Positions 16,044-57,228 of a stretch of 64,000 nt of DNA are shown in pieces. A model generated the notes under the pieces. It made no database searches, was not told the DNA's origin, and worked only from the letters and a program-made list of their open reading frames with translations. Position numbers and translations under genes: made by a program. Every line of letters starts with the position of its first letter. Positions within the stretch are counted from its first letter, which is position 1. The stretch is taken from assembly GCA_964646765.1 (NCBI GenBank), contig CAZYIA010000001.1:341621-405620 (forward strand), in the 5' to 3' direction. This DNA comes from an uncultured Candidatus Saccharibacteria bacterium. GTDB lineage: Bacteria; Patescibacteriota; Minisyncoccia; Phycocordibacterales; UBA9973.

Positions 16044-16047
16044 ATTT

Positions 16048-16788: not shown

Positions 16789-16808
16789 TAACCCCTTTTA
16801 GATTTTAA

Positions 16809-17006
16809 GCCCGCCCCGCCAAAAAACAAAAAGCCGAAGCCCGCGCGGATTCCTCCCCAGACCCCTCCTCCGCGCGGGCGAGTCCGAATTTCAAAAAAAA
16901 TCAGCCGAATTTTTGCGAATCCTTTTCCCCAGAAAAATTGTTTCGCAAAAATTCGTCCGCTTTATTTATTTTGGAAATAGGTTCTAACTTGGTACAATAG
17001 AGACAC
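16809..17006. repeat. IR1-R, a 198-bp perfect inverted repeat
   Basis: It is the reverse complement of 14693..14890. Confidence 0.9.
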
Positions 17007-17148
17007 CAGAATTTTACTAATCGGTTTTTTGGAAGCCCCAATGCGGGACGCGCGAAGCGCGTCCCAAGGATTCCCGCCGATTTTTCCTAATGAATTTGGA
17101 GCGTCGCCTTCGGCGACGCGCACTGTTTTCTCGCCAAGAAGCAGGTTC
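17004..17148. repeat. IR2-L, a 145-bp perfect inverted repeat whose partner is 18733..18877
   Basis: It is the exact reverse complement of IR2-R. It contains hairpins GGGACGCGC-GAA-GCGCGTCCC and GCGTCGCC-TTCG-GCGACGC. It overlaps IR1-R by 3 bp. Confidence 0.9.
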
Positions 17149-17344
17149 AAAATCAGAAGCAATTTTGACTCAGAGTATTTGCTTTGATACAAAAAGAATT
17201 TTTGCCTTTTTTCTAAAAGTAGTATAATGACCTTGCGCAAACTTACGGAAGGTCTATTTTAATGGCCGTCTTGGACTTATCTAGATCTTCTAGGTTTGCG
17301 CACCAGGGCGGCCATTTAAGTTTTATCAATTAATTTTTATTTCT

Positions 17345-18919: not shown

Positions 18920-18958
18920 TTTACAGTCAAGTGCGATTGACCACTCCGCCACCGACGC
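18873..18958 (-). tRNA. tRNA-Tyr(GTA), type II, with CCA encoded
   Basis: Acceptor stem GCGTCGG/CCGGCGC. Anticodon stem CTTGA/TCAAG with loop CTGTAAA. There is a long variable arm. T-arm GAAGG-TTCGAAT-CCTTC. The 3' end is ACCA. Confidence 0.8.
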
Positions 18959-45216: not shown

Positions 45217-45288
45217 TCCGCGGTAGCTCAGCGGTAGAGCGTCCCGCTGTTAACGGGAGGGTCCCTGGTTCGAATCCAGGCCGCGGAG
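45217..45288 (+). tRNA. tRNA-Asn(GTT)
   Basis: Acceptor stem TCCGCGG/CCGCGGA. Anticodon stem TCCCG/CGGGA with loop CTGTTAA. T-arm CCTGG-TTCGAAT-CCAGG. Confidence 0.85.
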
Positions 45289-46995
45289 CATAGTAGAAAA
45301 AACTGGCGAAAACTCGCTGGTTTTTTCGTTTAAGCTTTTCATATCAAGCCAATTCTTAGGTTCGGACTTTTGAAATTCGCTTTCCATCAAAGAAACTACT
45401 TCAAAGAGCTTCTCAACTGATTTTTGCTTGATAACACTAACTTTTTCTTCATCCCACACTAGGTTCGTACCAAGTCTATGAAGTAGTGATTTTTTAGCTT
45501 TTAATTGACCATTCTGCATTACATCAAAGAACTCTTGAGACAGGTCAATAATCTCATTTGCTCTCTTGGTCCAGTCAAAGGTATTAGTTGGCTTATTAGA
45601 GGTCTTAAAACGCTCCTCAAGGTCTCTTAAATCGCTTTTGTATTCATCTTCGGTGATAAGCTCATTAGCCAATATTTTACGCATCTTCCTCTTCATATCC
45701 TCATATTCATCCGATTGCTTTAAGGCTATTTCTTCCTTAAGAAGATTTTCATTAATCTCATTGTCTCTAAGCTCGCTTATGAACTTTCTAGCCCAATCAG
45801 CTACTTTCTGAGACATAGGTATTTTACCTTTTGCATCAGCAAGTAAGGCGGTCATTATTTTGTCAGAATTAATAGACTTAACTCCTAGTTTTTTCTTCTT
45901 ACGAGTTATGTTGTAGTAGTAAGAGTAATCTAAATACTTTGGTTTTTCCATTTTATCTATCTCAATACCACACTGAGGGCATTGAGTTTTGTCTCTGTAA
46001 GGAAATTTGTTTTTGCAATCACAGATAACCTGATACTTCTTATCAAGCCCAATGTATTCACCATTTGGAGAAGATACAAAACCTACAAAAACATCATCGT
46101 GTGTTTGTGTCTTTGGGATATTTCTCCTTTGTAAGATTGCTTTTATTTTATTGTGTTCATCTTCCGTGATTAAGCGAGGCAACTCTTTATCTAGTTCATA
46201 TCTTTCACCTCCATAGAAAAAGAAACCAGCGTAAATTGGGTCTGTAAGTATTTCATATATTCTTGATAGTTGAATGAGTTCACCTCCAATTCTTTTTCTT
46301 CTAACAGTAGTGAGCTTAAGGTCTTTTGTTGCATATCCGTGTAGCTTGCCAGCGGACCATTCACCAGTTAAAAAAGTTTTCAGTATCTGTTGTATTTTGG
46401 GAAGTCTTTCCTTATCAACTAACCATTTTCTATTTCCTTTTTCTTCTGTTTTGTCGTTTAGAAAACCGAGAGAAGCAACTCCGTGAGGTATACCCAGTGT
46501 TGCTTTCTTGGTCTGACCACGTTTAACATTTATAGATAAATCTTTTACAAACTGTTTACCTTGCCCAAATTCAACAGACATAAGTAAAACATTGTCAGTT
46601 GGATAATAAACCTTATCGTGAGTAATAATTGCTTTTAGAACACCAGAGCTTAGTAAATCAATCAACATTCCTCCCTCGGTCATATTTCGTGCCAATCGGT
46701 CAAGTTTCCAACACACAATGGCATCAATTACACCGCTTTTTATCATAGCTATCATCTCGCCAAATTGAGGTCTAACAAACTCTTTTTTGGCTGATTTCGC
46801 TTCTTGAAATATTTGTATAAACTTTGGGAGCTTATAGTACTCAGCAATCCTTTGAGCTTCTTCAATTTGCGAAACCACTGAAAGCATTTGCTTATCTTCA
46901 CTCTCAGAAGACTTTCTGTTGTAATTTACTGGCTTTAATTTTGTGAAATCAAGTTGTATATAATTATTCATAAATAAAAATGAGGTAACGACCAT
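45250..46995 (-). CDS. Large serine recombinase/integrase, paralogous to the one at 17345..18919
   Basis: Catalytic segment NRKSSESEDKQ and W.LDRLARN, a recombinase domain, and a zinc ribbon CDCKNKF...CPQCG. The last 13 codons overlap the tRNA-Asn 3' half. Confidence 0.85.
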   Translation of the reverse strand: MVVTSFLFMNNYIQLDFTKLKPVNYNRKSSESEDKQMLSVVSQIEEAQRIAEYYKLPKFIQIFQEAKSAKKEFVRPQFGEMIAMIKSGVIDAIVCWKLDRLARNMTEGGMLIDLLSSGVLKAIITHDKVYYPTDNVLLMSVEFGQGKQFVKDLSINVKRGQTKKATLGIPHGVASLGFLNDKTEEKGNRKWLVDKERLPKIQQILKTFLTGEWSAGKLHGYATKDLKLTTVRRKRIGGELIQLSRIYEILTDPIYAGFFFYGGERYELDKELPRLITEDEHNKIKAILQRRNIPKTQTHDDVFVGFVSSPNGEYIGLDKKYQVICDCKNKFPYRDKTQCPQCGIEIDKMEKPKYLDYSYYYNITRKKKKLGVKSINSDKIMTALLADAKGKIPMSQKVADWARKFISELRDNEINENLLKEEIALKQSDEYEDMKRKMRKILANELITEDEYKSDLRDLEERFKTSNKPTNTFDWTKRANEIIDLSQEFFDVMQNGQLKAKKSLLHRLGTNLVWDEEKVSVIKQKSVEKLFEVVSLMESEFQKSEPKNWLDMKSLNEKTSEFSPVFSTMLRGLDSNQGPSR

Positions 46996-47425
46996 TACTT
47001 AAGTTGCTACACCAAGTGGGTCATTACCTCGTTTTTATCCACAAAAATACTTAATTATAGTAAAAGTATTTTTATGATATTCACCTGGTGTAGCACTTAC
47101 ATTTTATCACAGTTGTAAGTATCTGTTTATCTTTACTCTATCCAAAAAGATAGTTAAAAGCCCTATATAATAGATGCTTTACTTAACCGTTTGATGATTA
47201 TTTTTATTCTCATCTCAAGTACGGAAACTATATTTTCCTTATTCAGTATTGCTATTACCACAATACAACTTAGACCTTATGTAGTTCTTAGTATCGGGTA
47301 GGATTATAGTTTTACATTGTTCCTATTTATCCCGCTTTTCTTTACTCCCTCCAACTAGGATTGCTGTCCCAGACATCAGTTATAAAGTCCTTATATTTTT
47401 ACAGCTATAAGGTCCGCCCACCGTT

Positions 47426-47471
47426 AGAGTCATTACTGACTCTGTACTGTCTACTGCAATAGACAGTACAG
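47426..47471. repeat. Twin perfect palindromes inside the AT-rich noncoding block
   Basis: AGAGTCA-TTAC-TGACTCT is directly followed by CTGTACTGTCTA-CTGCAA-TAGACAGTACAG. Confidence 0.6.
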
Positions 47472-47660
47472 AATTAGCAATTATTTTCTATTCTTAACTT
47501 CAAACCTTGAGCCATAATTTCAAGAAACAACTGACCTAAATGGTCCAGTTCTTCTTCTGATAAAGAATTAACAAAAACCTCTCCATATTCTTTCTGGAGA
47601 ACTTCTTTAAGTTCAGTTAATGCTTTGTTACTAAGACTCATAGTTTGAGTCCTCTCGTAT

Positions 47661-47686
47661 GCAAAAAGCAGTCTAGAGGACTGCTT
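47661..47686 (-). terminator. Intrinsic terminator for the minus-strand gene ending at 47724
   Basis: The minus strand reads AAGCAGTCCTCTAGACTGCTTTTTGC. Confidence 0.5.
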
Positions 47687-47723
47687 ATATTGTCGTATTT
47701 ATCTCTATTTACCTCAGCCCCTT

Positions 47724-48557
47724 TTAAGGGATTTGCTTAAATAATCCAATTTTAATTTGAGTCTTATTTTTCTTTGCTTTTTCTATAATTGCCTTAACAT
47801 AGTCAGCCTTATAAGGTCCATTTTTAGGTGATTTTAGATTAAATCTGTGGAAAAGATAATGTGCTATTAATTCGTATTTTGCTCTATACAAGGCAATTCT
47901 TTTACCGTTTGGTGAAAAATGTGATTTGTATTCTGTGGGAAATTTTAAAGCAAAAGCATCTCTTATTTCTTCAGAGCTAAATGTATCTAAAACACGGACC
48001 CATAAATCAAAATTATAACTTTCTTCTTTTCTAGCACGATTTTTTTGTCTTTTAATGCTAACTCCAATTTCCTTGAACTTATTTATTAGGTTATTTTCTT
48101 TTTTATTTAAAAAATCTGCAATTTGTTTTTTGTCTCCTCCTGGAAGTATTTTTAGATAAAGTGCCTTTTCTTTGTCGTTACTAACAAACCAAGAGATATT
48201 CTCAAAGGGTACTTCTGTATCGTATTGAATACCACCAAATAAAAGAATTTCTTGCACTACAAAATTCCAATCCTCTCTCATAATCAGGTATTGGTATTCA
48301 GGATATTTTTTTGCTAAAGCCTTACGAAAATTTACAAAAGCTTTTTCAAGCTTAGAATTTGTGTTGATTATATTACTAACAAAATCTTTTCTATACAAAA
48401 AAGAAGTCCATTCATATTTATCAATCAAAAAATCAAATTGATGACCATCTATACCACCAATTTTTCTGTACTTTTCAGCGATAACTTCAGTTTCTAAACT
48501 GTCTATTTTTTCTAGAGCTAATCTTTTTCTTTTGTCACTTGGTGTAGCATTTTTCAT
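47724..48557 (-). CDS. Hypothetical protein encoded immediately downstream of res
   Basis: The ORF is 277 aa and lysine-rich. No motif was recognised. Confidence 0.4.
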   Translation of the reverse strand: MKNATPSDKRKRLALEKIDSLETEVIAEKYRKIGGIDGHQFDFLIDKYEWTSFLYRKDFVSNIINTNSKLEKAFVNFRKALAKKYPEYQYLIMREDWNFVVQEILLFGGIQYDTEVPFENISWFVSNDKEKALYLKILPGGDKKQIADFLNKKENNLINKFKEIGVSIKRQKNRARKEESYNFDLWVRVLDTFSSEEIRDAFALKFPTEYKSHFSPNGKRIALYRAKYELIAHYLFHRFNLKSPKNGPYKADYVKAIIEKAKKNKTQIKIGLFKQIP

Positions 48558-48565
48558 AAACGAGT

Positions 48566-51214
48566 TTATAATAATTCTTTTTCAAAAGTTTCTCCAAAAA
48601 GATTTTCATCTCCATTGTTGTAAAAAGGCATACCCCAGACAGTGTATTTTCTATCCTCCCAAAGCTGTTCAATTTTATGTTCTTTTTTAAGGGATACCAA
48701 GAAGTTTTGCTTCCAAGCATCTGCTTGTTTTAAGTGATTTCCTTTTGGTTCTACAAACACCTGATAGTGAAGACTCTTTGGTTTTGCTTTTTGATATAGG
48801 AATAGTACGAAATCCGGTTCCAGTGGTCTTCCATCATCAAAGTTATAGAGTTTGAAAAATCTTTCGTTACGAACCAAGTAAACTTCATCATATTTTTCAC
48901 GAAGTTGGTTATAGATTTTATCTATATATTTTATGAAATACTTTTCTTCTGAAGTACCAAAGCAGTCATTGAATACATACCAAGATTTATTACTGAGGTC
49001 CAAATAAATACTAGTTTCCTGAGCATTATTAATTGATTTACCAAACTCCTTATCCTCACTTTCATTTTCAGCAAAATTAAGGACCTTTTCTGAAATTTTA
49101 TCCTTAATCATATAAGGTTTAAATTCCTTGCTTCCTTTATACTCTAGTTTTTCACTAGATACGCTCTTAGAAACCTGTTCTAGAACCTGTAAAACAGCGT
49201 CTAGGACATCATCAGGGCTTAAGGCTTCTAGTTGGCTAGATAAGCCTGAAATAGTCATCTTAAGGCTTCCTAGGTAGTTTTTATCAGTTATAAACTCATC
49301 TAAACTCTCAAGGTTCGGGAAATAAGTTTTAAGGTTTGAGAATGAGTAAAACTCAAGCTTATAGATAGCTTTTTTAACTACTGTTTTATTAAAATCTTTG
49401 ATAGAAAAATCTTTCTCCGCCTTGTTTACGCCTTTCTTTGTTTGTTCTTCAAATAGTCCGCTAGAGAGGTTAAATCCGGTTCTAAGAGAAACTCGGTAGA
49501 GAGTGTCTCTTACTGAAGACGGTAATCCGAAAACATCTTCTCTGGTATATTTTTGTTGTTCATTTAAGAAAAGCATACCGGATTTATAGAATTTACTTTC
49601 TTTAAAATCATCTTTAATTTTAAAATCTCTTTTGACTGTCTTATCAGCAACAATACCGGTTTTTACTAGAGCAGAATTAAGCTCTTGAATGTATTTGGGG
49701 TTATAAGTACTGTGATAGTAAAGCTCCTCACAAATTCTCATTTCATTTGTTACATCTCCGTCAAATTTTCTCTTTGATGCTTGGTCAGTCTCATTAAGTT
49801 TAAATGGACAGTATCTAGCACCACGCCCAATAAGTTGAGCTTCTTTTATAGTTGTTTCTCCTGGTTTATTGTTTTTTGCATCACGAGTATCATAAAGACG
49901 AACAATATCAAAAAGATTAAGGACATCCCAACCCTCATTAAGTTTATCTACAGCGAAAACAGCTCTATACTCATTGTTGGGAGCTTCTAGGGTATTAATA
50001 GCTAATTGTTTCTCTTCACTTTCTTCCTTACTGTTTACTGAGATAGTTTTTTCAGCGGAAAAATCTTCCTTTAGTTCAGCTACTAAGTTCTCAAGTGTAA
50101 TTTTCTGAGTATCAAAATACTCAAACATTTTAACTAGGACCTCGTCTTTTGCATTAGCTTTAATACTACTTAATTTTTTAACAGTAAGTGCTTCTATTCC
50201 CTTAATAAACTCTTCTTGAAAGTCTTTACTATCAGCAATAGTCTTTGATTTGAATAACAGGACCGGTTTAATAACTTGTTTATTTCTCTCAAAAATCTTT
50301 CTACGATACTGACTGAGTAAGATAGCTTGTAATGCACGGTCAAAAAGGTCCGCATCAGCCTGAAGAACTTTTACATCTTTAGAATATCCATCTATACGAA
50401 ACTGCTTCAAAGGATAATCAAATACAAGTCTTTCAGCGTACTTCTTGGCTATGTTTGTATTAGTAAAATCAACAGTAGCGGTAAATTCTAAAAGTACATT
50501 CTGAGGGTTAGCATTAAAAATTCTGTTTACTGTACTTTCCCAAGAGATAATCTCTTCAGCTTCTTCTTTAGACACCTGACCGTTAATAGCCACACCACCA
50601 AACACATCGGTACGGAGACCAGCTTTTGTCTCAACATTTATATGGTGAGCTTCATCAGAAATAAGTACTATTTTCTTATCTTGAAAATCATCATAAGTTA
50701 GACTATTTTCCTGAGGATTTGTGAGTCTTGTATGAAGTCCTTGAATAGTAGAGAAGCAGATATTAATACAGTCATCATTACCGGCTTGGAAATTAGTTAC
50801 TTCTTTGAGAGTTATTTTCTTATCTCCCAAAGAAACATTCTTATTAAAAAGATATTTGATTGATGAGTCGTTGAAAAAATTATCTCGTGTTTTATCTATA
50901 ATATTTGTACTGTTTACGAAAAAGAGAAAGTTTCTATATCCTTGTTCATACAGATAGAGAATAAGACCAGCCATAATAAGTGTCTTACCGCTACCAGTAG
51001 CCATATGGAAAAGGAGTTGAGATTTGGCTGGTTTACCATCAAATTTTTCATTCCAGTAATTTAGGAAATACTGAAAAGCCCTCTCTTGATAAGGTCTAAT
51101 TTCAAAGTTCTGATTGAGGTTTTTAGTTATAAATTCAGGGACTGGAGTAGCTTCTATTCCACGCTTACCAAACTCAGACTCAAGTATTTTGTTTAATGTC
51201 TTAATCTCGTCCAT
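48566..51214 (-). CDS. res: Type III restriction enzyme Res subunit
   Basis: Helicase motifs I (HMATGSGKT) and II (LISDEAHH), a long C-terminal region, and 14-nt overlap coupling with the mod gene. Confidence 0.8.
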   Translation of the reverse strand: MDEIKTLNKILESEFGKRGIEATPVPEFITKNLNQNFEIRPYQERAFQYFLNYWNEKFDGKPAKSQLLFHMATGSGKTLIMAGLILYLYEQGYRNFLFFVNSTNIIDKTRDNFFNDSSIKYLFNKNVSLGDKKITLKEVTNFQAGNDDCINICFSTIQGLHTRLTNPQENSLTYDDFQDKKIVLISDEAHHINVETKAGLRTDVFGGVAINGQVSKEEAEEIISWESTVNRIFNANPQNVLLEFTATVDFTNTNIAKKYAERLVFDYPLKQFRIDGYSKDVKVLQADADLFDRALQAILLSQYRRKIFERNKQVIKPVLLFKSKTIADSKDFQEEFIKGIEALTVKKLSSIKANAKDEVLVKMFEYFDTQKITLENLVAELKEDFSAEKTISVNSKEESEEKQLAINTLEAPNNEYRAVFAVDKLNEGWDVLNLFDIVRLYDTRDAKNNKPGETTIKEAQLIGRGARYCPFKLNETDQASKRKFDGDVTNEMRICEELYYHSTYNPKYIQELNSALVKTGIVADKTVKRDFKIKDDFKESKFYKSGMLFLNEQQKYTREDVFGLPSSVRDTLYRVSLRTGFNLSSGLFEEQTKKGVNKAEKDFSIKDFNKTVVKKAIYKLEFYSFSNLKTYFPNLESLDEFITDKNYLGSLKMTISGLSSQLEALSPDDVLDAVLQVLEQVSKSVSSEKLEYKGSKEFKPYMIKDKISEKVLNFAENESEDKEFGKSINNAQETSIYLDLSNKSWYVFNDCFGTSEEKYFIKYIDKIYNQLREKYDEVYLVRNERFFKLYNFDDGRPLEPDFVLFLYQKAKPKSLHYQVFVEPKGNHLKQADAWKQNFLVSLKKEHKIEQLWEDRKYTVWGMPFYNNGDENLFGETFEKELL

Positions 51215-53108
51215 AGAATTTTTTATTCAAAGCTATGTCTTCTTTAGAGATTTTATATGTCTTATCTTCAATTTCAGAATAAGGTACATAGAGCATATTT
51301 TTGTCTAGGGTAGAGATTAAGAATTTTTGTTGGTCCTCAAATGAAAGACTCTCAAAATCTTTCTTAGTGGCATCAATTTCTTCAGGCTTTACTTTATAAC
51401 TCAAAAAAGCAGTCTTCTTCATTTCATCCCATACCTTAAGAAGTTCTTTTGTGTTTTTTGAGTCTTGGATTTTATCTACAAAAAGCTGGTTAGCTTGTGT
51501 TAGTTCAGCATAAACAAAACTACCTTTCTTTGCCTCTTTTATTACTCTGTATACTCTTTCTCTAGTAACTTTTTCTATGTAGTCCATTTGTTCACAGATA
51601 ATAAATTTTCTATTACCTTTATCTTCATCATTCAAGGCAAGTACAGCGTGTGCTGTTGTACCACTTCCACCAAAAAAGTCTAAAACAATGTCATCATCAG
51701 AAGTCATTATCTTTAAAGTATCAAGAACGGTGTATAAAGATTTTGGATAACTAAATAAATTACCCCCTAAGATTTTTTTGAGTAAGTTTGTGCCATTAAA
51801 TTCAGACTGATATTTTTTGTCTGTCCACACATTCTTATAAACCTGCTGTTCTCTTAGTTTGTGATAAATTACTATTTTATTATTTTCCTCTTTAGCAATG
51901 AAATAATCATCGTGATTTAATTCATCAAATGATTGCTTGATATTTTTCCAAGCCATTTCTTTACCGTTATTGGTAATAGGAAAAATCTCGTGATAACCTG
52001 ATTTCTTTTCAGAAGTTATTGTTTTTAAATCTTTGCTTACATAAATCGGATACCAGTTATTTGGCTTATTTTGTCTAGACCAAACTGTTCTGGCTCTTAG
52101 GAATGGCTCATATCTAAAACTACCATCATCATCACTTTCTGAGAAAGACTCTTTAACAGCCTCATCAATAGCAACTTGGTTAAATTCTGCTTGTTCAACA
52201 TTCTTTGCGTATACAAGCATAAATTCACTATTTGGAGAGAAAAATTTAGAAAGATTTCTACCTTTTGGATTATGTAAGACAGTTACAACTCCCACACGGT
52301 TTTCTCTACCAAAAATTTCATCGGCTAAAGCACCTAAATAAAATAATTCGGCGTGGTCAATGGCAATAGCAATAAATCCATCCTCAGTAATAAAATCTTT
52401 AGCAACTTCAAGCCTATTTTTCATAAAAGTAAGCCAGGTTGAATGTTTAAATGTATTGTTATATGCGAAAGTATCACCATCAGAACCTGTGTTGTATGGC
52501 GGGTCAATATAAACAAGTTTAACTTTTTGCTTATATTTATTTCTTAGAGAATATAGACTTAACAAATTATTTCCCTTAATAATCAAATTATCCTGAAGAC
52601 TTATTTCATTGACTGTTTTTGCTCCTTTTTCATCAAATTTTTTAAAGTTTGTAAGAACTTTTGGTTCAAGAAGTTTATCAATTTCGTCCGGTGCAAGTGT
52701 CTCATTCCAGAATATCTCCTCGCGATTTGCATCTTCCTGATTTTGTCCACCCTCAAGAATAGCGTCTTTATATGGAAAAGCTAAAACAACCTCATCGTTG
52801 TCTGTGAGATATTGCTTATCAGAAGTAAGACCTACTTTATTTTTGTACTCAGTAAAACTATCCGGCAAAAATTGTTTATTAGAAACAAAACTTTGAAATT
52901 TCGCTTTATCAAAAATAAGGACACCATCTACTTCCTGAAAGAAAGTTTTATTTAGGTCCTTTGAGGAACGGAGTATTTTAAGCAAATCAACATCAAGTTG
53001 AAGAGCAAGTTCAATAACTTTGTTTTTAGCAAGTTTACCGTCAATAACAAGACGGTCATCTTTTGAGAGTTTTTCTATAAGTTCTTGGTGTAGCTTCATA
53101 TAAAGCAT
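51201..53108 (-). CDS. mod: Type III modification methyltransferase Mod subunit (N6-adenine, beta-class)
   Basis: Motif IV VYIDPPYN precedes motif I DFFGGSGTT. Confidence 0.8.
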   Translation of the reverse strand: MLYMKLHQELIEKLSKDDRLVIDGKLAKNKVIELALQLDVDLLKILRSSKDLNKTFFQEVDGVLIFDKAKFQSFVSNKQFLPDSFTEYKNKVGLTSDKQYLTDNDEVVLAFPYKDAILEGGQNQEDANREEIFWNETLAPDEIDKLLEPKVLTNFKKFDEKGAKTVNEISLQDNLIIKGNNLLSLYSLRNKYKQKVKLVYIDPPYNTGSDGDTFAYNNTFKHSTWLTFMKNRLEVAKDFITEDGFIAIAIDHAELFYLGALADEIFGRENRVGVVTVLHNPKGRNLSKFFSPNSEFMLVYAKNVEQAEFNQVAIDEAVKESFSESDDDGSFRYEPFLRARTVWSRQNKPNNWYPIYVSKDLKTITSEKKSGYHEIFPITNNGKEMAWKNIKQSFDELNHDDYFIAKEENNKIVIYHKLREQQVYKNVWTDKKYQSEFNGTNLLKKILGGNLFSYPKSLYTVLDTLKIMTSDDDIVLDFFGGSGTTAHAVLALNDEDKGNRKFIICEQMDYIEKVTRERVYRVIKEAKKGSFVYAELTQANQLFVDKIQDSKNTKELLKVWDEMKKTAFLSYKVKPEEIDATKKDFESLSFEDQQKFLISTLDKNMLYVPYSEIEDKTYKISKEDIALNKKFYGRD

Positions 53109-53263
53109 TTTACCAAAAATTCTTTAATTAAGAAAGAAAATTTGCTATACTGAAAAAACAATTTAATAGACGACCTAACCCGATAGGAATTTCCTAGCGA
53201 TATGGTCATAAACACCGCAAAAGTATAAAAACCCCTTAGTCTAGGGTCACTTTTGCGGTCACA

Positions 53264-53620
53264 TTGGGAAACTGGTGTGGGTGGGTAATACCATCGTCCT
53301 GGCTAAGGGATTTTTGTATGGAAAATTCTATGTCAGGCTATAAATCCGCAAAAGTTTTTATGACAAAATATGATATTGGTTTAATGTTGATTATCTTTGC
53401 AATAGGTTTTGATTTAGTTTCTTTAAGAAAAGAGGTTCGTAGATTAAGTATCAAACTTATGAATAAATTAGATAAGCCAACAGAATTAGAAAAGCAAATT
53501 GAAGAGAGAAAAAAGAAACCTTATTTAACAAAAGAGGAATTAGATAAGGTTATGACTCCTGAGGAAAAAGAAATAAGAAAGAAATTATTCGGCAGTGAAT
53601 ATCCAAAAGAAATTGATTAA
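53264..53620 (+). CDS. Small membrane or coiled-coil hypothetical protein
   Basis: One TM helix and a K/E-rich C-terminus. Confidence 0.3.
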   Translation: MGNWCGWVIPSSWLRDFCMENSMSGYKSAKVFMTKYDIGLMLIIFAIGFDLVSLRKEVRRLSIKLMNKLDKPTELEKQIEERKKKPYLTKEELDKVMTPEEKEIRKKLFGSEYPKEID

Positions 53621-53621
53621 A

Positions 53622-54023
53622 TTAGAGGTTGTCTTTAAATTTATTTACAATTCTGTCAGAAAGAACATCATAATCTAATCCTCTAGTGAACATAGGTGGA
53701 AAATCGTAGAGGTCCGAAGTATCAAACCTAGCATTTGAACTCCAATCATTTTTAAACTTCCTTTCAAGTATCCAGGCTGTTGCTTTCCAATCTTTTTCTC
53801 CAGCTTTTTCAATGCGTTTGAGTAGTTTTTGTTTGTACTCAATCATTTTTTGACCCATTTGTTCTGAAAATTCTGAATTGTGTCTTTTCCATAAACAGAT
53901 GGTATCTTCAGAAATACCAGCAAGTAAGGCACAGTCACGCTGTGTCATTCCATTAGCTAAACCATCAAGAATTATTGCAACTCTTTCAGGTGTCATCTTA
54001 TAAGGTTTGTTAGTTTTCGCCAT
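53622..54023 (-). CDS. HTH protein resembling the N-terminus of phage terminase small subunits
   Basis: MTPERVAIILDGLANGMTQRDCALLAGISEDTICLWKRHNSEF. Confidence 0.45.
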   Translation of the reverse strand: MAKTNKPYKMTPERVAIILDGLANGMTQRDCALLAGISEDTICLWKRHNSEFSEQMGQKMIEYKQKLLKRIEKAGEKDWKATAWILERKFKNDWSSNARFDTSDLYDFPPMFTRGLDYDVLSDRIVNKFKDNL

Positions 54024-54119
54024 AGCAAATAAGTTTAATTACTTAATAATTGCTATTGCAGTAGCTCTTTACATTATATCAAAAAGTCGTGAAAAATGTT
54101 AAAGTAGACTTACTTTTCA

Positions 54120-55238
54120 ATGCAGAATACAACAGACAACAAAAATATACCTGACATAAACAAAACTCTTGTTGCCCCAAGTGTGGCACTTGTAATTGTT
54201 GGTAAAACTTCATTAAAAAAGAAGCGAAGAAAAAGAAAAAAGGATATAAAAGAGTACTTAAGAAGAAAAGCTGAAAAAGCACTCCGTAGAAAGAGAAGAA
54301 AAAAGTTAAGAGGTAAAAGACAAAGTCTGATACTAACCCCGAAGAAAAAGAACAGTCACACAAAAAAGTCAGTACCTGCTAATTTTTCTTTAGTAAATAA
54401 TACTGAAGAAGTTATTGGGTATTTTAAGGATGTTGGAAAAACTTTTGCTAATAGAGAGCAAGTAGCTTTTGACCTAGAGGGAGTTGAACAACTTTCACCT
54501 GATGCGATTGCTCTTCTTGTTGCAAAGGTTAATGATGTTAATTTTACACGAGGTCTAAATATGATTGGAAACAGTCCTCTAAAAGCGGAAATAAAGAAGA
54601 TATTTGATGACTCTAGATTTCTAGAACACGTGCAAGCCAGATATACTCCTCCACCAAATGAAAGTAATTTATTAATCCACCAAAAAACACAGAAAAAAGT
54701 TCATCCAGAAATTGCTAAACAAGTTGGAGAACTTGCGGTCCGGCATACTTTTAAAGATACAAGAAAGTTTCAGCCAATTTTTAAAATGATGATTGAGTGT
54801 ATGGCAAACACAGACAATCACGCCAACCTAAAATTAGAAGGTTTTTATGACTGGTGGATATTTACTTATTGTGACCCAGATACTAACATAACATCATTTT
54901 CTTTCTTGGACTTGGGTGTAGGTATCTTTAATAGTAATCCTGTTAATAGCTACAAGCAAAAATTTTTGAACACTATTCAATCTGCAACAGGTTTAAATGT
55001 GAGTAATAATTCAAAATTAGTTCCAAAGCTATTCTCTGGAGAAATATATACATCAAGAACTAAGGATAAAACTAGAGGACAAGGACTTCCTAGTCTTAAA
55101 GAATGTGCTGAGAACTCTCATATTAAAAATATGACAATTATCACAAATAATGTTAAAATAAGCTTACCTAGCTTAGTGACAGTTGAATTAAGTAATAAAT
55201 TTAATGGCACTTTTTTGTATTGGGAGTTACACCCTTAA
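54120..55238 (+). CDS. GHKL-family (histidine-kinase-like) ATPase with a highly basic N-terminal tail
   Basis: N-box ECMANTDNHANL, G1 box FLDLGVGIF and G2 box TRGQGLPSL. The N-terminus is KKKRRKRKKD...RRKRRKKLRGKR. Confidence 0.45.
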   Translation: MQNTTDNKNIPDINKTLVAPSVALVIVGKTSLKKKRRKRKKDIKEYLRRKAEKALRRKRRKKLRGKRQSLILTPKKKNSHTKKSVPANFSLVNNTEEVIGYFKDVGKTFANREQVAFDLEGVEQLSPDAIALLVAKVNDVNFTRGLNMIGNSPLKAEIKKIFDDSRFLEHVQARYTPPPNESNLLIHQKTQKKVHPEIAKQVGELAVRHTFKDTRKFQPIFKMMIECMANTDNHANLKLEGFYDWWIFTYCDPDTNITSFSFLDLGVGIFNSNPVNSYKQKFLNTIQSATGLNVSNNSKLVPKLFSGEIYTSRTKDKTRGQGLPSLKECAENSHIKNMTIITNNVKISLPSLVTVELSNKFNGTFLYWELHP

Positions 55239-55576
55239 TTAATATGGAACAGATTAAAATCATAGTTGCGACAGAATTCTCAGATGCACCTGGTGCAAGG
55301 TTTATTTCCGATGGAGAAAATTCAGGGGAACTTTTCTATAATACTTTACTGAAAGATAGGTTTACTGAGGCAAAAAATGCAAATACCAAACTCCTCATAG
55401 ACCTTGATAATACTTGGGGTTATGCTTCTTCTTTTATATCAGGTGCTTTTGGTAGACTAGCTGATGAATTCGGTAAAAATACTGCAATTAAACATCTTGA
55501 TATTAAATCAGATGATGACCCTACTTTGTTCCAAAAAATAAAAGATGAGATTAACAAGTCTAGTAATAATGCTTAA
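55220..55576 (+). CDS. Small partner protein of the GHKL ATPase (possibly STAS/DUF4325-like)
   Basis: It is 118 aa and overlaps the ATPase gene at the 3' end, which suggests translational coupling. It contains IIVATEFSDAPGARF...LLIDLDN. Confidence 0.35.
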   Translation: MGVTPLINMEQIKIIVATEFSDAPGARFISDGENSGELFYNTLLKDRFTEAKNANTKLLIDLDNTWGYASSFISGAFGRLADEFGKNTAIKHLDIKSDDDPTLFQKIKDEINKSSNNA

Positions 55577-56165
55577 ATCTATTGGTAAACATCTCCATAC
55601 AATCATTATCTGGATACTCATTTTTCTAGGTGGATTTGTTGCTGGAAGAATAGTTAAAGATATTCCATATTTAACTCTTGAAACAAAAGTTGGCATAGGC
55701 GATATTGCAAATTTTGTCATTGCGACTGTGGTTGCTGTGCTTATCCCTGTATCGCTAAGTCCTATTCTTAAAAACAAAAGAGTTATTAAAGACTTTCTTA
55801 TTGATGAGGTAAAAGACTGTATTGATTTCCTAACCTCAATTAAAGCATCTGTAGATGATATGGCTATTAGAGGAAGTAGCGAGGAAAGTGACCGTGTGAA
55901 AATAAATTCAATGATTGCTCAAGACTTAGGAATGAAAATCGGCTCTCTCGCAGAACAGCTTGAGGTATCTTTCAAAAATAAGTGTCCTGAAATCAAAACA
56001 GCTCTTACTGAGAGATATGGCGAATATTGGAGAGAAATGACTGGTGGTGACCTAATGTCACAGAATTTCACATTCAGTCTTGGTTTTCGTGCTACACACG
56101 ATAGAAATTACGCTAAATTACAGGCTTGTCTAAAAAAGACAATACACGAGATAAATAACTTTTAG
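55569..56165 (+). CDS. Membrane hypothetical protein
   Basis: Two to three N-terminal TM helices. The start was set at an internal Met to limit overlap. Confidence 0.35.
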   Translation: MLKSIGKHLHTIIIWILIFLGGFVAGRIVKDIPYLTLETKVGIGDIANFVIATVVAVLIPVSLSPILKNKRVIKDFLIDEVKDCIDFLTSIKASVDDMAIRGSSEESDRVKINSMIAQDLGMKIGSLAEQLEVSFKNKCPEIKTALTERYGEYWREMTGGDLMSQNFTFSLGFRATHDRNYAKLQACLKKTIHEINNF

Positions 56166-56336
56166 TTTATATTTTCCTCTATTATTGCCTTTCGCACTTC
56201 GTCCCAAGTTCGGAGCTCTAATTTGACTAAATATTTTTTCGTGTTAAAGTGCGATTGAGCGCTGTTTTTTGATACATGTTTTATGGTTGCCAGAAGAGGC
56301 AATTCCCTTTTGTGGTAACCATAAAACTATTAGAAG

Positions 56337-56846
56337 ATGAACTTATCAAACCCGATCACCACTGTTGATGCAATGGCAGATTTTATTTGGGATTTCAAAT
56401 TGTTATTAGAAATTGAACTTACGATAACAGAACAAAATCCCCATGAGAAGACAGCGGCTGCTATCCAAACTTTTACTAAGCTACACGAGGAACTTAATGT
56501 TATTTTTTTACCAAAATCTACATCTACTACAGCCGGAGGATTTTTCTTACCTGCAGATATGGAGTTCCCTGCTGAAGCAACTGAAATTCTCTCTCAAATG
56601 CAGAAGACAATTAAAGATGCCGAATTTAAGGGACTAAACGTATTTGCACTTATTAAGAATAAGGGTGTCATGGAAGGATATCAAAGCCCTCCTGGCTGTC
56701 ACCGACACAAGTGCCCAAAATGCAATACCATCTGGGAACACAGCGACTCTCCGTGGCAATTTTGGAAAACTCATAATTGCCCTAACTGCGGCACAAAACA
56801 GTTATATCGATACTTTGGACCAGAACAACCTCATCTGTGGGCGTAA
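56337..56846 (+). CDS. Zinc-ribbon hypothetical protein
   Basis: C-terminal CHRHKCPKC...HNCPNCG. Confidence 0.4.
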   Translation: MNLSNPITTVDAMADFIWDFKLLLEIELTITEQNPHEKTAAAIQTFTKLHEELNVIFLPKSTSTTAGGFFLPADMEFPAEATEILSQMQKTIKDAEFKGLNVFALIKNKGVMEGYQSPPGCHRHKCPKCNTIWEHSDSPWQFWKTHNCPNCGTKQLYRYFGPEQPHLWA

Positions 56847-56863
56847 AGCCAACACTTACCTTA

Positions 56864-56900
56864 CCGGTATGCACCATGTTTATGGAGCATACCGGTTTTT
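56864..56900 (+). terminator. Intrinsic terminator
   Basis: CCGGTATGC-(loop)-GCATACCGG-TTTTT. Confidence 0.55.
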
Positions 56901-56920
56901 CTCTGAGAGAGCTGCTTGAC

Positions 56921-56941
56921 GTATACCCCCTAGGGGTATAC
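56921..56941. promoter_or_regulatory. CsoR-type operator palindrome overlapping the putative csoR promoter
   Basis: GTATACCCCCTAGGGGTATAC lies between a TTGACG -35-like hexamer at 56915 and the csoR start. Confidence 0.5.
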
Positions 56942-56960
56942 GATGTTTCGTATGAAATAC

Positions 56961-57227
56961 ATGGAGGAAAAAACAAAAGCGAAATTAATCAAGCAACTTA
57001 AACGCATCGAGGGTCAAGTGCGCGGGCTACAAAAACTTATTGATAATGACACCTATTGTATCGATATCATCACTCAAACTTCTGCCGTGAAGCAGAGTCT
57101 TTCAAGTGTTGAAGATACCCTTCTTGAAAACCACTTAGGTCATTGTGTACACCACCAAATGTCTTCTGGTCAGGTCGGAAAAGCAAAGGAAGAAGTACTC
57201 AAAGTTTATAAACTTAAACGAAAATAA
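56961..57227 (+). CDS. csoR: Copper-sensing transcriptional repressor of the CsoR/RcnR family
   Basis: LKRIEGQVRGLQKLIDNDTYCIDIITQTSAVKQSLSSVEDTLLENHLGHCV. The start was set at MEEKTK. Confidence 0.75.
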   Translation: MEEKTKAKLIKQLKRIEGQVRGLQKLIDNDTYCIDIITQTSAVKQSLSSVEDTLLENHLGHCVHHQMSSGQVGKAKEEVLKVYKLKRK

Positions 57228-57228
57228 T

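What the first reader, a model, noticed from the sequence alone, without database searches (positions are those of the whole stretch)
45217..56900. GC-poor island at tRNA-Asn carrying a Type III RM system
The serine integrase overlaps the tRNA 3' half. The island continues with the following, in order. 

First, a 700-bp AT-rich noncoding block with twin palindromes. Next, a 277-aa unknown gene, then res and mod with a 14-nt coupling overlap. Last, at least six small hypothetical genes, one of which has an HTH of the phage terminase-small-subunit type. 

GC content here is visibly lower than in the flanking housekeeping genes. A degenerate tRNA-like stretch, GTCCCAAGTTCGGAGCTC at about 56195, and a terminator at 56864 are candidate right ends.
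Basis: partly seen in the sequence, partly recalled or inferred. Interest (0 to 1): 0.65.

Follow-up and report, generated by a model that had tools for sequence, protein, structure and literature searches.

The report
Serine-integrase defence island at tRNA-Asn
This is a real 10.9-kb mobile island in an uncultured Patescibacteria genome that carries a Type III restriction-modification system, and it was inserted at the end of the tRNA-Asn gene by a large serine integrase whose own gene spans the attachment site, so integration replaces the last 17 codons of the enzyme.

Summary
tRNA-Asn, the serine integrase reading antisense into the tRNA, mod/res with a 14-nt overlap, the TerS-like HTH gene and the GC drop (0.42 to about 0.32) are all present.

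The island runs from the tRNA 3' end (core CGGAGC, 45284-45289) to a second CGGAGC at 56211-56216, which is 10,927 bp. It is not a tRNA remnant. It is the displaced 3' end of the integrase gene, the P arm of attP.

Evidence for mobility:
- A 99.4%-identical copy sits at a different tRNA-Asn in a different genome.
- Relatives have empty sites, or a homologous integrase with different cargo (ABC-3C).
- A related 7.77-kb circular element carries the integrase ORF uninterrupted (...STM|LRTWDDVR...).

The integrase belongs to a family of at least 860 proteins. In 88 of the best 120, the protein ends in antisense tRNA-Asn sequence.

- The "noncoding" block holds a conserved 55-aa gene.
- The 169-aa gene and the 56864 hairpin lie outside the island.

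Additional findings in the island:
- A LOOT RNA.
- A STAS/SpoIIAB-like GHKL + STAS + membrane-protein trio.
- An element-encoded terminator for the tRNA.

It is a known kind of element (an integrative defence island) in an unusual variant.

The parts
45217..45289 (+). Host tRNA-Asn(GTT). Its T-arm and acceptor end form the left (B) half-site of attB.
   Evidence: ARAGORN and Rfam tRNA at 69.9 bits. The tRNA body differs between the window, L076 and L025, while the DNA to its right is 88-99% identical. TTCGA lies 12 nt from GAGC in every tRNA arm.
45284..45289 (.). attL core CGGAGC, the sequence shared with attR. The crossover lies in or next to it.
   Evidence: Identity with L076 (99.4%) and L025 starts at GGAGCA|TAGTAG. 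The same hexamer recurs at 56211-56216.
45290..45330 (+). P' arm of attP with an element-encoded intrinsic terminator for the tRNA. The stem is 45303-45309 / 45314-45320 and the T-run is 45321-45326. It lies antisense inside the integrase coding sequence.
   Evidence: The arm is conserved in all islands. In 18 islands the hairpin is 94.4% paired, 5 of 7 pairs show compensatory changes, and 0 of 500 shuffles reach that level. The frequent G-U pairs only work on the tRNA strand.
45250..46971 (-). Large serine recombinase (integrase), integrated form. The start is probably the ATG at 46971, although the ORF is open from 46995. The last 13 codons (45250-45288) are antisense tRNA.
   Evidence: Pfam Resolvase 8e-15 and Recombinase 1e-4; phrog_95 integrase 2.5e-39. 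The start was chosen by alignment with L018. The family has 860 homologs. The fold of a 55%-identical homolog matches full-length LSR structures at E 1e-16.
46972..47473 (.). AT-rich spacer between the 55-aa gene and the integrase, with hairpins at 47432-47481 just after the 55-aa gene's stop. It is present in the window and L025 but is only 20-120 bp in other islands.
   Evidence: Sequence, inverted repeat I11, gap sizes in L018, L070 and L071. No Rfam match.
47474..47641 (-). 55-aa helical protein, a conserved partner of the integrase. It is a candidate recombination directionality factor or regulator; this is inferred, not shown.
   Evidence: BLASTP homologs lie directly upstream of the integrase, on the same strand, in about 30 loci and in L070-L078. 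No family match.
47724..48557 (-). 277-aa protein of unknown function. It is lineage-specific cargo and is absent from the 88%-related island L025.
   Evidence: No Pfam, PADLOC, PHROG or NCBIfam match. Only identical or near-identical copies were found, in L015, L016 and L076.
48566..51214 (-). Type III restriction subunit Res.
   Evidence: PADLOC REase_III 3.3e-130 (residues 21-872 of 882); Pfam ResIII 2e-29. By inspection of the translation: GSGKT, DEAH, QLIGRGAR and PD...EPK motifs.
51201..53108 (-). Type III methyltransferase Mod. It overlaps res by 14 nt.
   Evidence: PADLOC MTase_III 5.7e-140; Pfam N6_N4_Mtase 1e-30 and TypeIII_RM_meth 1e-19. DPPY and FGGSGTT motifs. The central region (aa about 240-480) is only 28-48% identical to L025, while the ends are 85-100% identical.
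53172..53295 (+). LOOT RNA (Rfam RF03000), divergent from mod and 22 nt upstream of the 100-aa gene.
   Evidence: Rfam 74.5 bits against a gathering score of 46.4, full length. LOOT copies were found in 13 distinct related loci, 15 hit loci counting duplicate contigs. Each copy lies 20-65 nt upstream of a same-strand ORF.
53318..53620 (+). 100-aa membrane protein with a Lys/Glu-rich tail, downstream of LOOT.
   Evidence: Called gene in L015/L069. An 88%-identical homolog is in L025. The hydrophobic segment is visible in the translation.
53622..54023 (-). 133-aa HTH protein resembling the N-terminal part of phage small terminase subunits. It is not conserved in the island family.
   Evidence: phrog_4102 7.8e-18. 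Pfam Sf6_terminase and HTH_23 matches are only weak. jackhmmer finds no homolog in the other loci.
54120..55238 (+). 372-aa protein made of a Lys/Arg-rich tail, a STAS-like domain (read from the sequence) and a SpoIIAB-like GHKL ATPase/kinase domain.
   Evidence: phrog_3364 2e-27. 208 homologs, with invariant N-box, G1 and G2 motifs. AF2 pLDDT 81.6. Foldseek top hits are SpoIIAB (probability 0.99-1.0, TMt 0.54-0.64), then CheA P4.
55244..55576 (+). 110-aa STAS-like protein (DUF4325), the presumed partner of the GHKL protein.
   Evidence: Pfam PF14213 1.2e-8. The phrog_5816 match falls in the C-terminal part of a 441-position profile. It co-occurs with the 372-aa homolog in L042.
55569..56165 (+). 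198-aa membrane protein, the third gene of the trio.
   Evidence: Called gene. A 30%-identical homolog occupies the same position in L042.
56162..56216 (-). P arm of attP, which is also the severed 3' end of the integrase gene. It encodes LRTWDEVRKAIIEENIN* in the integrase frame. The TTCGCA motif is at 56191-56196.
   Evidence: The same motif occurs at the integrase-distal end of L018, L029 and L063, and in L041 and L055. It is contiguous with the integrase in L070-L080 and in at least 9 database proteins. TTCGA lies 17 nt from GAGC in every P arm, against 12 nt in the tRNA arms.
56211..56216 (.). attR core CGGAGC.
   Evidence: It is 10,927 bp from the attL core.
56217..56272 (+). Host side of attR (the B' arm), with a hairpin at 56248-56263 followed by a T-run. 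This is probably the original terminator of tRNA-Asn.
   Evidence: Terminator-like site. GC returns to the host level from about 56300-56450.

Best explanation
The segment 45290-56216 is a 10.9-kb integrative mobile element.

How it got there (shown by comparison). A large serine recombinase (LSR) recombined an attP site lying inside the 3' end of its own gene with an attB site made of the last ~25 nt of the host tRNA-Asn gene plus the downstream DNA. The crossover is in or next to CGGAGC, the acceptor-stem end and discriminator base. The tRNA therefore stays intact. Its old terminator is displaced to the far end of the island, and the element supplies a new terminator hairpin that is encoded antisense within the integrase gene.

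Consequence for the integrase (shown). Integration cuts off the last 17 codons (LRTWDEVRKAIIEENIN). These now lie 10.9 kb away at attR. In the integrated state they are replaced by 12 codons read from the antisense of the tRNA.

Excision (inferred). Excision would need the integrase and probably a directionality factor, for which the conserved 55-aa neighbour is the obvious candidate. It would restore the full-length gene on a circle.

Cargo. A complete Type III restriction-modification system (mod then res) makes this a defence island. Its DNA-recognition region has been swapped relative to a sister island. The island also carries a LOOT RNA leader with a small membrane protein, an HTH protein, and a three-gene module (STAS + SpoIIAB-like GHKL protein, STAS-like DUF4325 protein, membrane protein) that looks like a partner-switching sensor of unknown output.

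Not shown. Whether the tail swap changes integrase activity, how the element moves between cells, and what the non-R-M cargo does remain unknown.
For: Boundaries and mobility:
- L076 carries 3.57 kb of this island at 99.44% identity, next to a tRNA-Asn with a different acceptor stem and different host genes. Identity begins at GGAGCA|TAGTAG. L025 (88% identical integrase, 94% Res) shows the same break.
- Relatives that keep the left-flank synteny have no island. L018 instead has a 6.2-kb island with a 50%-identical integrase and an ABC-3C system, ending in the same motif.
- Composition changes at both junctions.

attP lies inside the integrase gene:
- The window's attL and attR halves join into a sequence collinear with the uninterrupted integrase 3' ends of L070-L072.
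- They are also collinear with the 7,771-bp circular element L079/L080, which has a 23-bp terminal repeat and exists as two 100%-identical circular permutations.
- Of the 120 best integrase clusters, 88 end in antisense tRNA-Asn, 9 carry the contiguous TWDxVR tail and 9 carry a second tail type.

LSR logic:
- The Resolvase and Recombinase domains and the full-length fold match LSR structures.
- There is only a 6-bp common core and no long direct repeat.
- TTCGA is 12 nt from GAGC in every B arm and 17 nt in every P arm. This is the 5-bp offset expected between attB and attP half-sites (Rutherford et al. 2013, cited from memory).

Other:
- Terminator covariation.
- The R-M system is complete.
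Against: - No empty site and no circular junction was recovered for this exact host and element. attB and attP of the window island are deduced, not observed.
- The right junction rests on one motif plus composition. No sister island with a sequenced right end in a different host was available, because the L025 and L076 contigs stop inside the island.
- Conservation of the tail could reflect only the DNA binding site: all tail classes share x-R-T, which is TTCGAAC. The peptide may therefore have no function.
- Some relatives sit in the contiguous configuration on long chromosomal contigs (L041, L042, L048), which the simple integrate/excise model does not explain.
- The window island has no recognisable replication or transfer genes.
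Confidence: 0.85

Rival explanations
1. The island is a phage satellite (PICI-like). It is integrated by its own integrase, is induced and packaged by a helper phage with the help of the TerS-like protein, and carries defence genes as such satellites often do.
For: - The 133-aa gene matches PHROG small-terminase families (phrog_4102 8e-18).
- The size (6-11 kb), the integrase at one end, the defence cargo and the absence of capsid or tail genes all fit.
- Relatives carry replication modules, Phage_rep_O or an AAA_25 helicase, and one exists as a circle.
Against: - The TerS-like gene is not conserved in any other island of the family, and only its HTH part matches.
- The window island has no replication gene.
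- IMG/VR holds no close relative of the integrase.
- No helper phage or packaging site is known.
- HTH proteins of this type are also ordinary regulators.
Confidence: 0.12
2. The element is a fixed, no longer mobile remnant. The integrase lost its true C-terminus on integration and can no longer excise, so the island is now simply part of the chromosome.
For: - The tail is replaced in the integrated form.
- 88 of the 120 best relatives are found in the integrated state.
- No circular junction of this island was seen.
- Archaeal 'suicidal' integrases set a precedent for att sites inside int (PMC8371274).
Against: - Only 17 of about 578 codons are lost. All catalytic, DNA-binding and coiled-coil parts remain and the ORF is intact.
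- A 99.4%-identical copy in a different genome shows very recent movement.
- The integrase genes of many integrated copies are intact rather than decayed.
Confidence: 0.15
3. It is a classical tRNA island of the tyrosine-integrase type. The crossover is inside the tRNA, the element carries a copy of the tRNA 3' half, and a decayed tRNA remnant sits at the far end.
For: The integrase ORF overlaps the tRNA 3' half. A stretch at 56200-56217 loosely resembles the T-arm and acceptor end (GTTCG...GGAGC).
Against: - The recombinase is a serine enzyme, not a tyrosine enzyme.
- There is no direct repeat longer than 6 bp.
- The tRNA 3' half differs between hosts that carry near-identical islands, so it is host DNA.
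- The far-end motif is conserved among islands in different hosts and is contiguous with the integrase gene in circular and unintegrated forms.
- Its TTCGA-GAGC spacing is 17 nt, not the tRNA's 12 nt.
Confidence: 0.02

Closest known systems
Phage and ICE large serine recombinase integration systems (PhiC31, Bxb1, A118/LI, TP901-1, SPbeta SprA, SCCmec CcrAB)
   Same: The domain set and full-length fold match. The att sites are short with a minimal common core and no long repeats. The attB and attP half-sites are offset by 5 bp. A small conserved neighbouring gene could be the directionality factor.
   Different: The target is a tRNA gene. A survey of 2168 genomes found t(m)RNA use by only 14 of 297 serine-integrase elements and stated it had not been reported before (PMC7192596). 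Here attP lies inside the integrase coding sequence, so the protein's C-terminus depends on the integration state. I found no natural LSR described this way. The host is Patescibacteria and the element is not a phage.
Integrases whose attP lies within int: archaeal SSV-type 'suicidal' tyrosine integrases (PMC8371274) and, from memory, Myxococcus phage Mx8 intP, which becomes intX on integration into a tRNA-Asp gene
   Same: Integration at a tRNA gene splits or rewrites the integrase gene, and the intact gene exists only on the free circle.
   Different: Those are tyrosine recombinases. In the SSV type the gene is cut in the middle and inactivated, whereas here only the last 17 codons are exchanged and the enzyme core is kept. 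The review calls suicidal integrases exclusive to archaea.
Defence islands / integrative elements carrying restriction-modification systems; Type III R-M (EcoP15I-like), including mod alleles with exchanged recognition domains
   Same: The complete mod-res pair has all the motifs and an overlapping gene arrangement. The mosaic Mod has a divergent central domain between near-identical ends. Sister islands carry other defence systems, ABC-3C in L018 and RE_NgoFVII/Dcm/Z1 in L070. R-M-bearing genomic islands have been noted in Patescibacteria (PMC12455944).
   Different: Nothing essential differs. The recognition sequence and activity are unknown.
SpoIIAB-SpoIIAA / RsbW-RsbV partner-switching modules
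   Same: The 372-aa protein has a SpoIIAB-like GHKL fold with conserved ATP-binding motifs. It is encoded next to a STAS-like protein.
   Different: No sigma factor is encoded nearby. The kinase-like protein has what appears from its sequence to be its own N-terminal STAS-like domain and a Lys/Arg-rich tail. A membrane protein is the third gene. The family is unannotated and is also found in phages (phrog_3364 and phrog_5816). There was no PADLOC hit.
LOOT RNA motif (Rfam RF03000; Weinberg et al. 2017, PMC5737381)
   Same: Full-length match above the gathering score.
   Different: As far as I recall, the motif was known only from metagenomes without an assigned organism or context. Here it sits in Patescibacteria islands of one integrase family, always just upstream of a gene that mostly encodes a membrane or secreted protein.

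Membership tests
Type III restriction-modification system | The Mod subunit is a beta-class N6-adenine methyltransferase (motif IV DPPY before motif I FxGxG) with the Type III-specific N-terminal domain. | tested here: met
   Pfam N6_N4_Mtase 1.4e-30 and TypeIII_RM_meth 1.3e-19; PADLOC MTase_III 5.7e-140. YIDPPYN and DFFGGSGTT are present in that order.
Type III restriction-modification system | The Res subunit has SF2 helicase motifs and a C-terminal PD-(D/E)xK nuclease. | tested here: met
   Pfam ResIII 2.3e-29; PADLOC REase_III 3.3e-130 covering residues 21-872 of 882. GSGKT, DEAH, QLIGRGAR and EPDF...VEPKG are seen in the translation.
Type III restriction-modification system | mod lies upstream of res in one operon. 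| tested here: met
   Both are on the minus strand, mod first, with a 14-nt overlap at 51201-51214.
Type III restriction-modification system | Hemi-methylation of an asymmetric 5-6 bp site, and cleavage that needs two inversely oriented sites and ATP. | not testable with these tools
   This needs methylome data or biochemistry.
Large serine recombinase (serine integrase) integrative element | An N-terminal resolvase catalytic domain with the Y-x-R-x-S nucleophile motif, plus a recombinase domain, a zinc ribbon and a coiled coil. | tested here: met
   Pfam Resolvase 7.9e-15 and Recombinase 1.2e-4. NYNRKSS and the CxC...CPxC cluster are in the sequence. The AF2 model of homolog P0209 shows a long helical hairpin at 385-451. 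It aligns over 564-578 columns to LSR-DNA complexes at E 1e-16.
Large serine recombinase (serine integrase) integrative element | Short att sites with only a few shared central bases, and no long flanking direct repeats. | tested here: met
   The common core is CGGAGC only. No tRNA-derived repeat was found in the repeat search.
Large serine recombinase (serine integrase) integrative element | attP half-sites carry the distal recognition motif 5 bp further from the crossover than attB half-sites do. | tested here: met
   The TTCGA-to-GAGC distance is 12 nt in all 24 tRNA arms and 17 nt in all P arms, whether in attR or in a contiguous attP. The rule itself is recalled from Rutherford et al. 2013 and was not re-read.
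Large serine recombinase (serine integrase) integrative element | Presence/absence polymorphism and a free circular form. | tested here: met
   Empty sites are seen in L021 and L022. The same island sits in another genome. A related element exists as a 7,771-bp circle. For this exact island the circle was not observed.
Large serine recombinase (serine integrase) integrative element | A recombination directionality factor is needed for excision. | tested here: inconclusive
   A conserved 55-aa neighbour exists but matches no known family. No interaction test was possible.
Tyrosine-integrase tRNA island | A tyrosine recombinase, and duplication of the tRNA 3' segment at the distal end. | tested here: not met
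   The recombinase is a serine enzyme. There is no duplication beyond 6 bp. The distal motif is element DNA, not tRNA.
Phage-inducible chromosomal island / phage satellite | An integrase plus a replication module plus a packaging-redirection gene, with helper-phage dependence. | tested here: inconclusive
   The integrase is present. A TerS-like HTH gene is present, but only in this lineage. The window island has no replication gene, although relatives have Rep_O or AAA_25. Helper dependence is not testable.
Integrases with attP inside the int gene (SSV-type, Mx8-type) | The att site lies within the integrase ORF, so integration changes the gene. | tested here: met
   The ORF is contiguous across attP in L070-L080 and in at least 9 database proteins, and is split in the window.
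Integrases with attP inside the int gene (SSV-type, Mx8-type) | Tyrosine recombinase chemistry. | tested here: not met
   It is a serine recombinase. It works in a similar way but is not a member.
LOOT RNA (RF03000) | A score at or above the Rfam gathering threshold over the full model. | tested here: met
   74.5 bits against 46.4, model positions 1-121 of 121.
SpoIIAB/SpoIIAA-type partner switching | A GHKL serine kinase or anti-sigma factor paired with a STAS-domain antagonist. | tested here: met
   Foldseek hits to SpoIIAB have probability 0.99-1.0. The N-box, G1 and G2 motifs are invariant in 41 homologs. The adjacent gene is DUF4325, STAS-like.
SpoIIAB/SpoIIAA-type partner switching | A target sigma factor, and a phosphorylatable serine on the STAS partner. 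| not tested
   No sigma factor gene is in the island. Residue-level analysis of DUF4325 was not done.

The most novel reading that the evidence does not exclude
Patescibacteria harbour a large, undescribed family of serine-integrase elements that target tRNA-Asn, in which attP is built into the last helix of the integrase. In this reading the enzyme's C-terminus acts as a built-in record and switch of integration state: the full TWDxVR tail is made only from the circle, and a tRNA-encoded tail is made from the chromosome. In the same reading, the repeated P-arm and attP-like sites that flank single genes in some islands (L055, L041, L071) mark integrase-driven, integron-like accretion of cassettes, so that the tRNA-Asn locus becomes a self-assembling defence island. 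LOOT RNA would be a regulatory leader belonging to this element family.
Probability: 0.25. Interest if true: 0.8.

Novelty: new variant of a known kind. Interest (0 to 1): 0.62.

Why it matters
- It gives a precisely mapped and apparently recently mobile element in Patescibacteria, a group whose gene exchange is poorly understood and which cannot yet be manipulated genetically.
- The integrase has a defined target of about 50 bp at the end of a universally present tRNA gene. Hundreds of natural variants and their junctions are now in hand. That makes it a candidate integration tool for these organisms and an addition to the serine-integrase toolbox.
- It is a clear natural case of a serine integrase using a tRNA gene, which a 2020 survey considered unreported and in need of proof (PMC7192596).
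- The integrase gene spans its own attachment site. This makes the question of whether the C-terminal tail controls directionality directly testable with two protein versions that nature already provides.
- It assigns an organism and a genomic context to the orphan LOOT RNA.
- It flags an unannotated STAS/GHKL three-gene module on mobile elements as a candidate sensor or defence system.
- The Type III R-M system itself is ordinary.

Tried and rejected
- Direct or inverted repeats between the tRNA region and the right end: nothing beyond chance. Searching for an inverted copy of the P' arm also found nothing.
- GTDB species representatives: the closest Fmt is only 50% identical and synteny is lost, so no empty site could be obtained from them.
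- The closest relative (77% Fmt) has gene calls but no DNA. L017 (76%) ends exactly at the tRNA.
- Looking up the window's own 169-aa protein returned only the same contig.
- IMG/VR scan with the integrase: no relatives, so the prophage reading was dropped.
- I first read L030, L041, L042 and L048 as pseudo-attB sites. I rejected this for L041, L042 and L048 once their TTCGA spacing (17 nt) and conserved tail showed they are in the contiguous attP-type configuration. L030 was not captured by that test.
- I first took L025, L044, L050, L052 and L055 to lack a tRNA. In L050 and L055 Rfam shows a group I intron splitting the tRNA-Asn anticodon loop. L025, L044 and L052 show the same 3'-exon pattern by eye, but Rfam reported no intron there.
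- L022's 86-aa ORF was tested as a possible integrase remnant: no similarity.
- The TerS-like gene is not a family backbone gene.
- Literature on LOOT: nothing in the main text, and the supplement is not held.
- The 277-aa, 55-aa and 198-aa proteins gave no informative family match even at E up to 5.

Full report

Yes.
- ARAGORN finds tRNA-Asn(GTT) at 45217-45289 (+), and Rfam agrees at 69.9 bits.
- On the opposite strand an ORF runs from 46995 to 45250. It carries Resolvase and Recombinase domains.
- Its TAA stop codon is the complement of bases in the anticodon loop, so 40 nt of the ORF are antisense tRNA.
- GC falls from 0.40-0.43 in the flanks to 0.30-0.35 between 46 and 56 kb.
- Gene by gene, the island genes have GC 0.27-0.35 and GC3 0.19-0.31. 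Thirty background ORFs of the window have GC 0.417 +/- 0.034 and GC3 0.340 +/- 0.052.
- res (48566-51214) and mod (51201-53108) are full-length matches to the PADLOC Type III models, at 3e-130 and 6e-140. They overlap by 14 nt.
- The translations show DPPY before FGGSGTT in Mod. Res has GSGKT, DEAH, QLIGRGAR and a PD...EPK nuclease motif.
- The 133-aa gene at 53622-54023 matches a PHROG small-terminase family at 8e-18.

One statement is wrong. The 'noncoding' block between the integrase and the 277-aa gene contains a 55-aa gene (47474-47641). Homologs of this gene sit directly upstream of the integrase in about 30 related loci.

**2. Host and flanks**

- The left flank is hisS, def, fmt, hpf, yggU. 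The right flank is a 169-aa zinc-ribbon gene followed by csoR-copA-dsbD-cupredoxin.
- The closest genomes are Patescibacteria, of the Nomurabacteria/Paceibacteria type.
- The same contig occurs in two sequencing runs.

**3. Is it an insertion?**

Several relatives keep the left flank but differ downstream of the tRNA.
- The 77% Fmt relative keeps pth-lepB-hisS-def-fmt-hpf-yggU and then has unrelated genes. It has no integrase and no R-M system.
- L021 (69%) and L022 (62%) have tRNA-Asn followed by other genes. L022's adjacent small ORF is not an integrase remnant.
- L017 (76%) has an identical tRNA, and its contig breaks exactly at the tRNA's end.
- L018 (63%) has, at the same place, a 50%-identical integrase overlapping the tRNA, a homolog of the 55-aa gene, an HTH gene and an ABC-3C system (DUF2326 + MC6/7 + CTD10).

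The strongest evidence is L076. It holds the res 3' part, the 277-aa gene, the 55-aa gene and the integrase at 99.44% identity over 3.57 kb. It lies beside a tRNA-Asn with a different acceptor stem (TCCGGAG rather than TCCGCGG), and its neighbours are a ferric reductase, rsmE, rnhB and dnaE. Identity starts at GGAGCA|TAGTAG. L025 (integrase 88%, Res 94%) shows the same break.

So the tRNA is host DNA, and the element begins at its last bases.

**4. The integrase family and its target**

- A metagenome scan returned 42 loci. In about 20 of them ARAGORN finds tRNA-Asn on the opposite strand, overlapping the integrase end.
- Several loci without a detected tRNA have a group I intron splitting the anticodon loop. 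Rfam confirms this for L050, L055 and L041.
- A protein search found 860 relatives at E <= 1e-30.
- Of the best 120, 75 stop within three codons after ...ML (a stop in the antisense T-arm). Another 13 read on through antisense tRNA, as ...QDSNLRPI....
- A survey of 2168 genomes found t(m)RNA targets for only 14 of 297 serine-integrase elements. It said such use had not been reported and needed proof (PMC7192596).

**5. The right end**

- No tRNA-derived repeat exists.
- It recurs at the integrase-distal side of L063 (16 of 16), L029 and L018, and in multiple copies in L041 and L055.
- In L018 it delimits a 6.2-kb island that ends right after the ABC-3C genes.
- Translated in the integrase frame it gives LRTWDEVRKAIIEENIN* in the window. 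Other loci give LRTWDNVR..., LRTWDEVR..., LQTWEDVR... and LTTWDDVR..., with many third-position differences.

I therefore predicted that the integrase ORF continues across a circular junction. A database search with the hypothetical joined protein bore this out.
- At least 9 of the 120 best clusters carry the contiguous tail...FSTML(R/Q/L/T)TWD(D/E/N)VR....
- Their contigs (L070-L078) have cargo, not a tRNA, after the integrase.
- L079 (7,794 bp, 23-bp terminal repeat) and L080 (7,769 bp) come from two samples and are 100%-identical circular permutations. Together they define a 7,771-bp circle with ...PVFSTM|LRTWDDVRLAILQSK* uninterrupted.
- The window's attL and attR halves join into a sequence collinear with these attP sites.

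The common core is CGGAGC, at 45284-45289 and at 56211-56216. The island is 10,927 bp.

Just right of attR there is a hairpin plus T-run (56248-56263), plausibly the tRNA's original terminator. GC returns to the host level there, and the 169-aa gene is host-like.

**6. Serine-integrase logic of the sites**

- In every tRNA arm, TTCGA (the T-loop) lies 12 nt from GAGC.
- In every P arm it lies 17 nt away, whether the arm is in attR or in a contiguous attP.
- A 5-bp outward shift of the distal motif in attP relative to attB is what the LI integrase-DNA structure predicts. I cite that paper from memory.
- The AF2 model of the circular element's integrase (pLDDT 81) aligns over its full length with recent LSR-DNA cryo-EM structures, PhiC31 and 4kis (E 1e-16 to 1e-8).
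- Residues 552-570 span the crossover and form a single helix with pLDDT 82-91. Integration therefore cuts a predicted helix in two.

**7. The tRNA's replacement terminator**

- Immediately after the tRNA, all islands of the main class have TAGAAAAAAC-hairpin-TTTTTTC.
- In 18 islands the 7-bp stem is 94.4% paired. Five of the seven pairs have compensatory changes, and 0 of 500 shuffles reach the observed covariation.
- The abundant G-U pairs would be A-C mismatches on the other strand.
- The element therefore brings a terminator for the tRNA it has separated from its own. The terminator is encoded antisense within codons ...EKTSEFSPVFS... of the integrase.

**8. Cargo**

- Mod versus L025: the termini are 85-100% identical. 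The region between the DPPY and FxGxG motifs is 28-48% identical, which indicates a recognition-domain swap.
- LOOT RNA: a full-length LOOT RNA (RF03000) lies at 53172-53295. LOOT copies were found in 13 distinct related loci, 15 hit loci counting duplicate contigs. Each is 20-65 nt upstream of a same-strand ORF, usually one encoding a membrane or signal-peptide protein, and each is divergent from another gene.
- The 372-aa protein: it has 208 homologs with invariant Bergerat-fold motifs. Its model's best PDB matches are SpoIIAB and then CheA P4.
- The rest of the trio: the 372-aa gene is followed by a STAS-like DUF4325 protein and a membrane protein. The trio recurs in L042. PADLOC has no model for it.
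- The TerS-like gene is not shared by other islands, and IMG/VR has no relatives of the integrase. The satellite/prophage readings are therefore weak.

**9. What is shown and what is inferred**

Shown by comparison:
- The island is an insertion and has moved recently.
- Both junctions are mapped to within a few bases.
- The integrase gene spans attP.
- Circular relatives exist.
- The R-M genes are complete.

Inferred:
- The tail exchange affects activity.
- The 55-aa protein is the directionality factor.
- The R-M system is active.
- The GHKL/STAS trio is a sensor or defence module.

A caveat applies to the tail. All tail classes share x-R-T, which is the DNA motif TTCGAAC. Conservation may therefore be due to the binding site alone.

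**10. Unexplained**

- Tandem P-arm copies separated by single genes occur in L055 and L041.
- L071 has two complete attP-like junctions.
- Some integrases sit in the contiguous configuration on long chromosomal contigs. L041 is one, and it has an apparently unoccupied, intron-bearing tRNA-Asn 1 kb away.

**11. Verdict**

As a defence island with a Type III R-M system it is ordinary. The unusual points are three:
- A serine integrase specific for a tRNA gene.
- Its attachment site lies inside its own last helix.
- It belongs to a large family confined, as far as seen here, to Patescibacteria.

I rate it a new variant of a known kind, with interest 0.62.

Noticed in passing
window 14929-18958: There is a second large serine recombinase at 17345-18919 (+), 524 aa, with Resolvase + Recombinase + Zn_ribbon_recom domains. 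It is 26% identical to the tRNA-Asn integrase. It reads antisense 47 nt into tRNA-Tyr (18873-18958, -). A GC-poor block at 15.2-16.8 kb lies upstream of it, with Peptidase_S51 and a 246-aa unknown gene. The architecture matches the tRNA-Asn island, but the distal end was not mapped.
   Followed up: partly
window 53172-53295; L025, L031, L033, L036, L037, L041, L042 (two copies), L048, L050, L055, L061, L063, L064: LOOT RNA (RF03000) is a recurrent component of this island family. It always lies 20-65 nt upstream of a same-strand ORF that mostly encodes a membrane or secreted protein. This looks like a 5' leader rather than a free sRNA.
   Followed up: partly
L050:11738-12015, L055:11696-12007, L041:12762-13018 (also L025, L044 and L052 by eye): In several related hosts, group I introns interrupt the anticodon loop of tRNA-Asn. 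This hid the tRNA from ARAGORN.
   Followed up: partly
L055:623, 978, 2000, 3071, 3588; L041:2533, 3246, 5654; L071 about 12.1 kb: Repeated copies of the attP left-arm motif, all in integrase orientation, flank single genes beyond the island end. L071 has a second complete attP-like junction. These could be decayed tandem islands or cassette accretion.
   Followed up: partly
L079 / L080: This is a 7,771-bp circular element found in two samples (ERR12387324 and ERR12387327). It has a related integrase, an AAA_25 helicase-like gene and a DUF5659 gene. It is a small integrative plasmid or episome of the same family.
   Followed up: yes
L018:13449-16161: A relative's island at the same tRNA-Asn site carries an ABC-3C conflict system (DUF2326 ABC ATPase, MC6/MC7, CTD10) instead of the R-M system.
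   Followed up: no
window 56920-56942: A perfect GC-rich palindrome, CGTATACCCCCTAGGGGTATACG, lies just upstream of csoR. It looks like a CsoR operator.
   Followed up: no
L025:14027-16688, L048:14020-16624 versus window 56943-59538: csoR-copA lies on the tRNA side of the integrase in L025 and L048 but on the cargo side in the window. The 77% relative has different genes between the tRNA and a large fn3/PG-binding protein. The whole tRNA-Asn neighbourhood is therefore variable.
   Followed up: no
L070:2528-5051: A different 498-aa serine recombinase abuts a shortened ComM-like (Mg_chelatase) gene. It lies next to an island of the family studied here that is in the contiguous attP configuration and carries RE_NgoFVII, a Dcm methylase and a Z1 protein.
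   Followed up: no
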